This document shows positions 22,106 to 32,000 of a DNA stretch of 32,000 nucleotides, piece after piece. Each line of letters starts with the position of its first letter. Positions within the stretch are counted from its first letter, which is position 1. The notes beneath the pieces are model-generated. The model was given only the letters and a program-made list of their open reading frames with translations. It searched no databases and was not told the origin of the DNA. Origin of the DNA: Methanocaldococcus jannaschii DSM 2661 (lineage in GTDB: Archaea > AGJL01 > Methanococci > Methanococcales > Methanocaldococcaceae); assembly GCF_000091665.1 (NCBI RefSeq), contig NC_000909.1, forward strand, positions 880,712-912,711. The letters are read 5' to 3'. The translations under genes and the position numbers were made by a program.

Positions 22106-22124
22106 TATAAGACATTATTTATAG

Positions 22125-22355
22125 ATTAAAATTAGCCATTTCGGAATGGAAATCTGTCTAAAATGTAGTGTTTCCATTTAAATGTCTCAGTTAATTAAAT
22201 CAGACCGATTCGGAATGGAAATAAGGACTGGGATGGATTTGCATTTAATAAAGATATGTAATTAAAATCAGACTAATTCGGGATGAAAACTAAGTTTCTT
22301 TCTGTCTCCTTAGCTTCCAATATTGATTAAAATCAGCTTTTAAGAGGTTAAACGT
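22125..22355 (+). CRISPR. degenerate four-repeat CRISPR remnant (ATTAAAATCAGACCG.TTCGGAATGGAAAT family)
   Basis: Repeats at 22125-22153, 22194-22222, 22261-22290 and a half-decayed copy at 22326-22355. Periods are 69/67/65 nt; unique spacers are 40/38/35 nt. The repeat resembles the Methanocaldococcus short-repeat family as I recall it. Confidence 0.8.
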
Positions 22356-28881: not shown

Positions 28882-30291
28882 ATGGAAAATTGGGTAGAAT
28901 TGAAAAAAGGAGCTAAGGTATTGCAAAACAACAAAAACAACAAAATTTTGATAGTTACCCATATAGATACTGATGGGCTAACATCAAGAGCTATTTTACA
29001 AAAATTGGCTGAGAGATTAAACTTGGATGCTGATTTCATGTTTTTGAAGCAAATTACTATAGAGACAATAAATGACATTCCATTTAAAGACTATGATTTA
29101 ATAATCTTTGCTGACTTAGGTAGTGGGCAGTTAAAGATGATTAAAGAGAAGTTAGATGAACTCAACTTATCTGATAAGAGAGACAAAATTATTATCTTAG
29201 ACCACCACCAACCAGAGGAGATAAAGATTCCAAAAACCATCATCCATATAAACCCCCTAACCATTGCAAAAAGCGGAGCTGAAATTTGCGGAGCTGGAGT
29301 TTCATATTTATTTGCAAAAGCTATAAACAATGATTGGATTGATTTGGCTAAATATGCTGTTTTGGGTGCTGTTGGTGATATTCAAAACATTGAGGGAAAA
29401 TTAATTGGTTTGAATAGAAAAATACTATGCGATGCAATTATGAATGGAGATGTTAAAGTAAAAACAGATTTACAGATGTATGGTAGGCAAACAAGACCTT
29501 TATTTGTGTCTATGAGATATTGGGCAGATGTGAGAACTGATTTATTAAATAACGATTCAAAGATAATCAAATACATCCAAAGCATAAATAAAAAGTATGA
29601 TATTGAAATAAACCCAACTATGAGATTAGCTGAAATTCCTTTTGAACATAAAAGGATTATTGGAAATGAGCTTTTAATAAAATGTCTAAACTATGTCCCA
29701 AACCACTGGACACCTTACATTCCAAAGGTTATATTTGGAGAGGTTTATGAATTTAGAGGAGAAGAGTTTGGATCTCCATTGAGAGATTTAGAGGAGTTCT
29801 CAACGTGCATAAACGCATGTTCAAGATATGGAGATTATGAAACAGCTTTAAATGTGTTAATGGGAGATAGGGATAAATACTATAGAAAAATGCTCTCAAA
29901 CTTAAGAAAGCATAGAAATAACTTAAGGGAGGCATTAGAGCATGTGAAAAATGACGTTGAGATAATTCAAAAAGATAGATTCCAATACTTTGAGACAGAT
30001 AAAATTATGTCAAATATTGTTGGGATTGTTGCTGGAATGAGTTATTCTATTGAAGAAGTGGATTGGATGAAGCCGATATTTGCAATAACAGAGGATGAAA
30101 ACGGCTATAAGGTATCCGCACGATGTCCTAAGCTATTGTGCTTTGCTGAGGATGTGAATTTAGCCAAGGCAATAAAATATGCATCAGAAAAGGTTAATGG
30201 TAGTGGGGGAGGGCATAAATTTGCCTGTGGGGCATATATTCCAGATAATAAAAGAGAATTTATAAAATACCTTGAGATTGCTTTGAGATAA
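28882..30291 (+). CDS. recJ: archaeal RecJ/Cdc45-like DHH phosphoesterase (GAN-type nuclease)
   Basis: DHH motifs [16 protein letters not shown] and ILDHHQP, plus the DHHA1 motif [10 protein letters not shown]; 469 aa. Confidence 0.85.
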
Positions 30292-30311: not shown

Positions 30312-30979
30312 ATGCAAATTCCAATTTTAATATGCCGTTTAAAGACAGATAAACCACTTAAAAAATCGCAAACACCATTTTTGAGGGGCTATATTTTAAA
30401 CAAATTTGGAAAAGAGGATTATGTAGAATTACACAACCACAGCGGAATGGTTTTCTCTATACATATCCAAAAATACAGTATAAGATTATTGGTGGAGATG
30501 CTGTTTTAATTGGCATAAAAGAGGGGATAAACATTTTGGGAGAGATTATTTTAAATATTAGAGAGTTAAATTTAAAAGGAGAAGTTTATAGGGTTGTTAA
30601 TGGCTATGCAAAGGTGAAGTTTGAAGAATTTGGAGTTGCTGAGAATATGATTAAGTATAAGTTTATATCTCCATGGATTGCTTTGAATGAGAAAAATTAT
30701 TTGGAGTATAAGGAGTTAGATGAAGATGGAAAGAAAGAGTTGTTAGAGAAAATTTTAGTTGGAAATATTTTATCTATGAGCAAGTATTTAGATTATACAG
30801 TTGAAGAAAAGTTAAAAGCAGGGCTTTTAGAATATGAAGACTTTGTTGTTAAATATAAAGGAAATAAGTTTATTGGCTTCTGGGGAGAGTTTTTGGTTAA
30901 TTTTAACATTCCTAATTATTTAGGAATTGGAAGAAAGGTTTCCAAGGGTTTTGGGAGTGTTATAAGAGTTGAAGAGTAA
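30312..30979 (+). pseudogene. cas6: Cas6-like RAMP endoribonuclease gene interrupted by a frameshift
   Basis: Frame of 30312 gives MQIPILICRLKTDKPLKKSQTPFLRGYILNKFGKEDYVELHNH. The frame 2 nt downstream (start positions 30446 and 30536), open from 30362, continues NGFLYTYPKIQYKIIGGDAVLIGIKEGINILGEIIL... and ends with the glycine-rich RAMP loop GIGRKVSKGFGSV. The junction must lie around 30441-30458. The combined length of about 225 aa is Cas6-sized. Confidence 0.7.
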
Positions 30980-31003: not shown

Positions 31004-31597
31004 TTAAACCTTCCTAATGAAAGGATATGCAATTAACGCCAAGCCAATTATCATTGTTAGATACCAACCTGTCCCCACCTGAATCTTTATAATATCCTTA
31101 GAGAGATAACTGGATTTTTCATTGACCACTCCCGTTATTAAATCTATTGGAGTGACTTCTTTACCTCCTGTAAGAGCTAATCCAGAATCTGATGAGTTCA
31201 GCCCTACTGTGAATAACACAACAAATATTGAAGCACAGGTAATTCCTGCTATTCCAGCTCCAACTACAACCGCTTTTTTATCAACGAATATTGAGGCAAT
31301 GTAGAGGATTATTGGAATTATACCAAATATCATCATAAATGTTGACATTTTTTCTTTAACAGCCATGTCAAAGTATTGTTTGACATATGGCATCATCATT
31401 TCTACAAATATGTTGTTTGTATCAGATTTAATATCTGATGAAACTCTAAATGGTGCGAGATTTACAGATAAATGAATTCCTTCGTCTGTCTTTATGTTTA
31501 TCGTAGAGGCAGAGATTGTGAGCCATGGGAGAAACAAAGCAATAATCCCTACAACAATGAGGGCTATTTTTATATAGTCAATTTTCTTTGGTAACAT
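31004..31597 (-). CDS. uncharacterised membrane protein (about 4 TM)
   Basis: 197-aa ORF with GAGGTGA before the ATG. Hydrophobic segments IALIVVGIIALFLPW, FMMIFGIIPIILYIASIF, VVGAGIAGITCASIFVVLF and WYLTMIIGLALIAYPF. Confidence 0.6.
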   Translation of the reverse strand: MLPKKIDYIKIALIVVGIIALFLPWLTISASTINIKTDEGIHLSVNLAPFRVSSDIKSDTNNIFVEMMMPYVKQYFDMAVKEKMSTFMMIFGIIPIILYIASIFVDKKAVVVGAGIAGITCASIFVVLFTVGLNSSDSGLALTGGKEVTPIDLITGVVNEKSSYLSKDIIKIQVGTGWYLTMIIGLALIAYPFIRKV

Positions 31598-31855
31598 TTT
31601 TTCACCTCGCTTTAATTTTTTAAATTTAGATTATATGGTAAATGATACTCTTTTTATGTATTAATTTATGCTTTATCTAAGTAATGTAAAGTAGAACTTC
31701 TCTAATACTACAAAACTCATATATATATACTTTACGGTTTTAGTTTAGTTAAAAATATTGGAATATTTGAATTAATAAATTAATGTTTAAAAAAAGATTT
31801 ATTCTTCTTTGAGAATTATAAGTTAAAATTTTTGGTAGTATATGGAAAAAAATAG

Positions 31856-32000
31856 GTTTTATCCTTGTTTTAATGGACTAAGAGTTCAAACAAAAGAACA
31901 TAACTGTGATGAAGTTGTTGCAGTCCTCCCAATGTTTCCATCCTTATTTTAATGGACTAACGATAAACACTTACTCTTTTTTCTTATTATACTCAAACTC
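31856..32000 (-). CRISPR. edge of a second CRISPR-type array (repeat GTTAGTCCATTAAAATAAGGATGGAAAC on the minus strand), continuing beyond the window
   Basis: GTTTCCATCCTTATTTTAATGGACTAAC at 31934-31961 and a degenerate copy GTTTTATCCTTGTTTTAATGGACTAAG at 31856-31882. Only two copies are visible, 79 nt apart. Strand is inferred from the ...ATGGAAAC 3' end on the minus strand. Confidence 0.5.

What the first reader, a model, noticed from the sequence alone, without database searches (positions are those of the whole stretch)
30312..30979. Cas6-like RAMP gene split by a frameshift (pseudogene, sequencing error or recoding)
The two track ORFs (30312-30509 and 30536-30979) are halves of one Cas6-sized protein. 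The N-terminal half has ...TPFLRGYILNKFGKEDYVELHNH. The second frame reads NGFLYTYPKIQYKIIGGDAVLIGIKEG... when extended upstream of its TTG, being open from 30362, and ends in the RAMP glycine-rich loop GIGRKVSKGFGSV.

Both frames are open over 30362-30509. By motif continuity (HNH... then YxYPxIQYK) the switch lies at about 30441-30458, next to GG and TTTT runs. No other cas genes are in the window, yet two repeat clusters are. Whether this stand-alone Cas6-like gene is active therefore matters for crRNA processing of the neighbouring array.
Basis: partly seen in the sequence, partly recalled or inferred. Interest (0 to 1): 0.6.

Follow-up and report, generated by a model that had tools for sequence, protein, structure and literature searches.

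The report
Broken Cas6b gene, relic CRISPR locus
This is a CRISPR RNA-cutting gene (cas6b) of Methanocaldococcus jannaschii that a genuine one-base deletion has broken, the leftover of a type I-B CRISPR system the organism has otherwise lost; it is ordinary gene decay, not a sequencing error or recoding.

Summary
ORF 30312-30509 and the frame open over 30362-30979 are the two halves of one Cas6b endoribonuclease. Pfam Cas6b_N positions 1-43 lie in the first frame. Positions 44-101 and all of Cas6b_C lie in the second. One base is missing from the Gly45 codon at 30444-30446; eight orthologues read through it as single 218-222 aa genes.

The deletion is real. Eight Logan/ENA assemblies of other sequencing runs and four JGI contigs carry the identical site, and no intact allele is in the protein collection. 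All appear to derive from the one strain.

It separates the catalytic His pair (H41/H43, matching H38/H40 of M. maripaludis Cas6b) from the Tyr pair. Neither ORF can be a nuclease.

In two relatives cas6b sits beside cas8b-cas7-cas5-cas3-cas1-cas4 and arrays of a 37-nt repeat. This genome has none of those effector genes. It keeps a two-repeat, one-spacer remnant at 31855-31970 (minus strand), a type I-A cluster and two intact canonical cas6 genes elsewhere.

No other lesion is present, and substitutions look as constrained as in intact orthologues, so the break is recent. Recoding is unlikely.

The 3' ORF is MJ0978, namesake of the "MJ0978-like" RAMP family (2006). Low interest.

The parts
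30312..30446 (+). 5' part of the cas6b pseudogene in the original frame. It holds native residues 1-45, including the catalytic His pair H41 and H43 (HNH).
   Evidence: Cas6b_N profile positions 1-43. Sequence. Equivalence to MmCas6b H38/H40 from the alignment with 4z7k and from PMC3479195.
30444..30446 (+). Site of the one-base deletion in the Gly45 codon (GGN AAT has become GG-AAT). Downstream of it the native reading continues in the -1 frame.
   Evidence: DNA alignment A1 with five orthologues shows a single one-base gap. The identical sequence is found in 12 contigs from other runs and samples.
30446..30979 (+). 3' part of the cas6b pseudogene in the second frame. It covers the rest of Cas6b_N (NGFLYTYPKIQYK, the Tyr pair), Cas6b_C and the G-rich loop. 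The annotated 147-aa ORF MJ0978 is its part from TTG 30536.
   Evidence: Cas6b_N positions 44-101 and Cas6b_C at 139 bits. The intact G001 orthologue matches PDB 4z7k Cas6b at E 1.7e-47. The name MJ0978 comes from PMC1462988.
30447..30509 (+). Out-of-frame tail of the 65-aa ORF (MVFSIHIQKYSIRLLVEMLF, then stop). It is not native protein.
   Evidence: Translation compared with orthologues.
31934..31970 (-). 37-nt CRISPR repeat of the type I-B (second) family, well preserved and ending ATGGAAAC.
   Evidence: It matches the 37-nt consensus of the 22 array repeats that matched the core pattern beside cas6b in relative G010.
31892..31933 (-). The single 42-nt spacer of the remnant array.
   Evidence: It has no other match in the genome, and neither of its halves has an exact match in viral contigs.
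31855..31891 (-). Degenerate terminal repeat of the remnant array (3' end GGATAAAACC instead of GGATGGAAAC).

Best explanation
A cas6b gene (the crRNA-processing endoribonuclease of type I-B CRISPR-Cas) has been inactivated by a genuine one-base deletion in codon 45. It is a relic. The ancestor carried a full type I-B locus with 37-nt-repeat arrays next to this gene. This lineage lost the effector and adaptation genes and all but two repeats, after which cas6b had no job and broke.

Translation from ATG 30312 gives 45 native residues, including the catalytic His pair, followed by 20 junk residues and a stop. The only canonical start in the second frame (TTG 30536) gives a fragment that lacks about 75 N-terminal residues, both His and both Tyr. 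No active nuclease is therefore made.

Shown:
- one family split across two frames;
- the exact indel;
- its presence in other assemblies of the same strain;
- type I-B neighbours in two relatives;
- no I-B effector genes found in this genome.

Inferred:
- the order of events (effector loss first, then the frameshift);
- the absence of a product.
For: Continuous Cas6b_N plus Cas6b_C profile match across the frame change.

Single one-base gap against five orthologues. Eight orthologous CDS are uninterrupted at 218-222 aa (open frames).

Identical DNA over the gene in eight Logan/ENA assemblies from other runs and in four JGI contigs. The exact 147-aa and 65-aa ORFs are seen on 49 and 17 contigs. 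No intact allele is in the collection; the best intact hits reach 86% identity or less.

His pair and Tyr pair lie on opposite sides of the break. Their role in MmCas6b is described in PMC3479195.

In G013, cas6b abuts cas3-cas5b-cas7(Csh2)-cas8b(Csh1)-cas1-cas4 and a 37-nt repeat array. In G010 the same genes lie next to the same DHH gene that precedes cas6b here.

The own genome has no Csh2, Csh1, Cas5b or I-B-type Cas4. It has a type I-A cluster and two canonical cas6 genes.

All 10 relatives with Csh2 have an intact cas6b. Of 8 genomes with a cas6b trace but no Csh2, 5 are broken, at different positions.
Against: Apart from the deletion the gene looks healthy. Pairwise dN/dS against orthologues is 0.06-0.10, the same as between intact genes. 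Lineage-specific changes are 27 synonymous to 9 non-synonymous. This fits a very recent break, but it would also fit continued selection on some product.

An SD-like GAGGGGAT lies 8 nt before TTG 30536, so the C-terminal fragment could be made.

Three relatives without Csh2 keep an intact orphan cas6b (G001, G016, G028). Loss of the effector therefore does not always lead to decay.

All sequence evidence appears to come from one strain. Whether the deletion arose in nature or in culture is unknown.
Confidence: 0.88

Rival explanations
1. The frameshift is an error of the 1996 reference sequence and the real gene is intact.
For: Early Sanger genomes contain such errors, and the gene shows no other lesion.
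Against: Twelve contigs assembled from other runs and samples have exactly the same sequence over the gene. The site is only an AA dinucleotide, not an error-prone homopolymer. No intact allele exists among the proteins searched.
Confidence: 0.02
2. Programmed recoding (-1 ribosomal frameshift or transcriptional slippage) restores a full-length active Cas6b.
For: The required shift is -1. Both frames are open over 30362-30509. A canonical slippery heptamer, UUUAAAC, lies in frame at 30395-30401.
Against: The break itself (C GGA AUG) is not slippery, and there is no A or T run of 6 or more near it.

Slipping at UUUAAAC would replace residues 30-45, including both catalytic His. That heptamer is simply the Y-I-L-N coding sequence shared with in-frame orthologues.

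The 89 nt after the heptamer, which span the break, fold no better than shuffles (z -0.9).

The shift is not conserved. Orthologues are in frame, and other decayed copies are broken elsewhere.
Confidence: 0.03
3. The gene survives as a fragment. The 147-aa Cas6b_C product (MJ0978), or the pair of fragments, is made and keeps a non-catalytic role such as binding repeat RNA.
For: The C-terminal domain and G-rich loop are intact. An SD-like motif precedes TTG 30536. Substitution pattern shows no relaxation. The main repeat family shares the ATGGAAA 3' end with the Cas6b-type repeat.
Against: About 30 residues of the N-terminal domain (46-75, a conserved core segment) are encoded by neither ORF. 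The SD-like motif is the conserved K-E-G-I coding sequence of orthologues. The substitution test cannot tell a recent break from selection. No relative has such a split as two genes.
Confidence: 0.06

Closest known systems
Cas6b of Methanococcus maripaludis C5 (type I-B crRNA endoribonuclease; PDB 4z7k/4z7l; Richter et al. 2012, PMC3479195)
   Same: Same Pfam architecture, Cas6b_N plus Cas6b_C. The intact G001 orthologue matches the 4z7k chain at E 1.7e-47 over residues 23-220. The HNH His pair, the Y-x-Y-P motif and the G-rich loop are conserved. Its cognate repeat is also 37 nt long; from my own recollection, the M. maripaludis repeat likewise ends in an 8-nt ...GAAAC tag.
   Different: Here the reading frame is broken between the His pair and the Tyr pair. 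The type I-B effector genes are not found in the genome. The cognate array is reduced to two repeats.
"MJ0978-like" RAMP family of Makarova et al. 2006 (PMC1462988)
   Same: It is this very locus. The 147-aa 3' ORF is MJ0978, recognised then as a RAMP by its C-terminal G-rich loop.
   Different: The family was named after what is only the 3' fragment of a frameshifted gene. Full-length members are about 220 aa and are now called Cas6b.
Orphan or decaying cas6b copies in other Methanococcales (G009, G012, G023, G024 broken; G001, G016, G028 intact)
   Same: Same gene. In the two checked (G001, G016) it has remnant repeats of the same family; in G001 it follows the full DHH gene, and G016 retains only the 3' end of a DHH-like sequence upstream. 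These genomes lack the I-B Cas7/Csh2.
   Different: The lesions differ: a frameshift elsewhere in G009, many stops in G012, single stops in G023 and G024. They are independent events.

Membership tests
Cas6b (type I-B Cas6; Pfam PF17955 + PF17262) | N-terminal Cas6b_N domain | tested here: met
   Profile positions 1-43 in frame A (31 bits) and 44-101 in frame B (50 bits). Both are over the 25-bit cut-off, and they are contiguous in the profile.
Cas6b (type I-B Cas6; Pfam PF17955 + PF17262) | C-terminal Cas6b_C domain with the G-rich loop | tested here: met
   139-141 bits against a cut-off of 39.4. GIGRKVSKGFGSV is present.
Cas6b (type I-B Cas6; Pfam PF17955 + PF17262) | Catalytic His pair (MmCas6b H38/H40) and Tyr47 | tested here: met
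   H41 and H43 lie in frame A. The Tyr pair of NGFLYTY lies in frame B. They are encoded in different frames, so they cannot sit in one polypeptide.
Cas6b (type I-B Cas6; Pfam PF17955 + PF17262) | One uninterrupted reading frame of about 220 aa | tested here: not met
   One-base deletion at 30444-30446. Orthologous CDS are 218-222 aa. It is a member by descent only, a pseudogene.
Cas6b (type I-B Cas6; Pfam PF17955 + PF17262) | Association with a type I-B effector module and its repeat type | tested here: inconclusive
   A two-copy remnant of the 37-nt repeat lies about 0.9 kb downstream. Csh1, Csh2, Cas5b and the I-B-type Cas4 are not found in the genome. The association holds in relatives G010 and G013.
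Cas6b (type I-B Cas6; Pfam PF17955 + PF17262) | Cleavage of repeat RNA leaving an 8-nt 5' tag | not testable with these tools
   This needs an enzyme assay or small-RNA sequencing.
Programmed -1 ribosomal frameshift | Slippery X XXY YYZ heptamer at the place where the native frames join | tested here: not met
   The junction reads C GGA AUG. The only heptamer in the overlap zone (UUUAAAC, 30395-30401) lies 45 nt upstream and would skip the catalytic His pair.
Programmed -1 ribosomal frameshift | Stimulatory RNA structure downstream, and conservation of the shift in relatives | tested here: not met
   Tested for the UUUAAAC heptamer: the fold of 30402-30490 is -11 kcal/mol, z -0.9. The region downstream of the break itself was not folded separately. 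All intact orthologues are in frame.

The most novel reading that the evidence does not exclude
The 147-aa C-terminal fragment (MJ0978: Cas6b_C domain, own SD-like motif, TTG start) is expressed. It has been kept as a non-catalytic repeat-RNA binder, for instance on the ATGGAAA 3' end that the genome's main repeat family shares with Cas6b-type repeats. This would explain why the broken gene shows no relaxed substitution pattern.
Probability: 0.05. Interest if true: 0.45.

Novelty: already known. Interest (0 to 1): 0.12.

Why it matters
It matters mainly for annotation. MJ0978 and the unannotated 65-aa ORF should be read as one frameshifted cas6b pseudogene. The second repeat family at the window edge is the remnant of a lost type I-B system, not a working array.

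It is also a tidy example of stepwise CRISPR-Cas loss in Methanococcales. The effector module goes first, then the array shrinks, then the orphan cas6b breaks, and this has happened independently in several genomes.

A small historical point: a RAMP family was named after the 3' fragment of a pseudogene.

It does not change the view of crRNA processing in this organism, which has two intact canonical cas6 genes.

Tried and rejected
1. **Read-level check.** I used contigs assembled from other runs instead.

2. **Wild alleles.** The JGI metagenome copies match the window wherever compared, apart from one indel upstream and a stretch of N. They add no natural-population evidence.

3. **NCBIfam.** It has no model that hits Cas6b, neither for the halves nor for an intact orthologue. 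Pfam does.

4. **Recoding.** Slippery heptamers, homopolymers, alternative starts and downstream structure were checked and rejected.

5. **Deletion boundaries.** I tried to define them by synteny with G010, G001, G016, G009 and G013. Synteny holds upstream of cas6b and ends at it, so the boundaries could not be drawn.

6. **Protospacer search.** I searched for the single remnant spacer in the own genome, including both extrachromosomal elements, and for exact halves in viral contigs. There was no match.

7. **Horizontal origin.** I asked whether cas6b is unusually diverged from G001 compared with its neighbours. It is 88% identical in amino acids; neighbours are 84-97%. There is no sign of a separate history.

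8. **Structure prediction.** Not run. The match to the solved Cas6b structure made it unnecessary.

Full report
**Where the window lies.** The window is G000:C1:880712-912711. The genome has three contigs of 1,664,970, 58,407 and 16,550 bases. From my own knowledge, these sizes match Methanocaldococcus jannaschii DSM 2661. The tool's named control genome "Methanocaldococcus jannaschii" also gives a Cas6b_C hit.

**The observation.**
- ORFs 30312-30509 (65 aa) and 30536-30979 (147 aa) exist as described.
- The second frame is open from 30362.
- Pfam places Cas6b_N profile positions 1-43 on residues 1-45 of the first frame. It places positions 44-101 on the second frame, starting at the codon that begins at base 30446. 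Cas6b_C follows at 139 bits against a cut-off of 39.4.
- The two matches abut in the profile and overlap by one base in the DNA. That is the signature of a single missing base.
- A DNA alignment with five orthologues shows exactly one gap, GCGG-AATGG against GCGGGAATGG or GTGGAAATGG, in the Gly45 codon at 30444-30446.
- Orthologues read ...VELHNHSGNGFVYTYPKIQYK... in one frame. Eight orthologous CDS are 218-222 aa.

- The exact 147-aa ORF is on record on 49 contigs and the exact 65-aa ORF on 17.
- Eight Logan or ENA contigs from different runs carry the gene region base for base: SRR4245585, ERR9765773, SRR21973173, ERR1254308, ERR9765779, ERR1254285, ERR9765766 and ERR9765769.
- Four JGI metagenome contigs carry the identical site as well.
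- No intact allele exists in the 5.8-billion-cluster collection. The best intact hits reach 86% identity or less.
- A reference-sequence error is therefore excluded.
- All these copies match the window wherever compared, apart from an upstream indel and a run of N. They appear to be the same strain. Whether the deletion arose in nature or in culture cannot be told.

**What the gene is.**
- The intact orthologue from relative G001 matches the solved M. maripaludis Cas6b structure (4z7k/4z7l) at E 1.7e-47.
- Richter et al. 2012 (PMC3479195) showed that H38 and H40 are jointly required for cleavage and that Y47 contributes.
- By the alignment, these correspond here to H41 and H43 in the first frame and to the Tyr pair of NGFLYTY in the second frame.
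- The break therefore falls inside the active-site segment.
- The 65-aa product has the histidines but nothing else of the fold.
- The 147-aa product lacks about 75 N-terminal residues and all four catalytic residues.
- Residues 46-75 are encoded by neither ORF. The second frame has no ATG, GTG or TTG before 30536.

**Recoding.**
- The junction (C GGA AUG) is not slippery and has no long homopolymer.
- An in-frame UUUAAAC lies at 30395-30401. A slip there would replace residues 30-45, both histidines included.
- That heptamer is just the Y-I-L-N coding sequence shared with in-frame orthologues.
- The 89 nt after the heptamer, which span the break, fold no better than shuffled sequence (z -0.9).
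- The shift is not conserved in relatives.

**Context in relatives.**
- In G013, cas6b abuts cas3, cas5b, cas7/Csh2, cas8b/Csh1, cas1 and cas4, with an array of the second repeat family. From contig length and a source name, G013 is probably M. infernus.
- In G010 the same genes lie directly after the same DHH-family gene that precedes cas6b here. They are flanked by two arrays, of 10 and 14 repeats.
- The repeat is 37 nt, GTTTGAATCGTTAGTCCATTAAAACAAGGATGGAAAC.

**Context in this genome.**
- The second repeat family occurs only three times: two copies at window 31855-31970 on the minus strand, separated by one 42-nt spacer, and one stray copy elsewhere.
- The downstream copy of the pair is degenerate at its 3' end, as terminal repeats usually are.
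- The main repeat family has 136 copies in 19 clusters.
- tblastn with the I-B proteins finds only cas6b, plus distant Cas1 and Cas3 hits in another cluster.
- The Csh2 model finds nothing in this genome.
- That other cluster, at C1:340-351 kb, is type I-A. It holds Cas7/Csa2, Cas5a, Cas3', Cas3'' and Cas8a2/Csa4, together with cas6, cas4 and cas1.
- A second canonical cas6 lies at 1,178 kb.

**Pattern across 31 genomes.**

| Group | Genomes | State of cas6b |
|---|---|---|
| Have Csh2 | 10 | all intact |
| cas6b trace, no Csh2 | 8 | 5 broken, 3 intact |

- The broken copies are in this genome, G009 (a frameshift elsewhere), G012 (many stops), G023 and G024.
- The intact orphans are in G001, G016 and G028.
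- The genomes are related and few, so this is descriptive only. It fits decay of cas6b after loss of its effector module.

**Age of the break.**
- Pairwise dN/dS of the frame-corrected sequence against orthologues is 0.06-0.10, the same as between intact orthologues.
- A parsimony count gives 27 synonymous to 9 non-synonymous changes on this lineage, against 33 to 17 on its intact sister.
- There is no second lesion.
- The break is therefore young relative to the split from G001 (dS about 0.74). Alternatively some product is still selected; the test cannot separate the two.

**What is known already.** The 147-aa ORF is MJ0978. Makarova et al. 2006 named the "MJ0978-like" RAMP family after it (PMC1462988). 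The family is today's Cas6b.

**Verdict.** This is an ordinary, real pseudogene of a well-characterised family, and a relic of a lost type I-B locus. Interest is low.

Noticed in passing
window 29414-29418: In two runs (ERR9765773 and ERR9765766) the assembled upstream DHH/DHHA1 (RecJ-like) gene has A4 instead of A5. This splits it into 186 + 283 aa. The other runs match the window. It is either a culture variant or a homopolymer error. JGI contig L045 also calls this gene in two pieces.
   Followed up: partly
window 22121-22289: A three-repeat remnant of the genome's main CRISPR repeat family (plus strand, spacing 68-69 nt) with increasingly degenerate copies. There are no cas genes nearby.
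   Followed up: partly
window 30395-30401: A canonical slippery heptamer, UUUAAAC, lies in frame inside the zone where both frames are open. It is explained by conserved Y-I-L-N coding. A slip there would not restore the active site.
   Followed up: yes
window 31004-31597 (minus strand): A 197-aa predicted membrane protein with no Pfam hit on record lies between the cas6b pseudogene and the remnant array. No counterpart was found in the cas6b neighbourhoods of relatives searched (1.5 kb either side), where the array or other genes follow cas6b directly.
   Followed up: partly
L039:10049-12393 (relative G001): Next to the intact orphan cas6b of the closest relative, two lone repeats of the I-B family flank a pair of ORFs (142 and 408 aa). 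From the sequence alone they look like an IS200/IS605-type transposase pair. This suggests how the locus was eroded there.
   Followed up: no
L009 and L020 (relative G028, probably Methanotorris igneus): Two cas6b copies with identical match scores, each beside an array of the I-B-type repeat, in a genome where no Csh2-type Cas7 was found. These arrays may serve another effector type.
   Followed up: no
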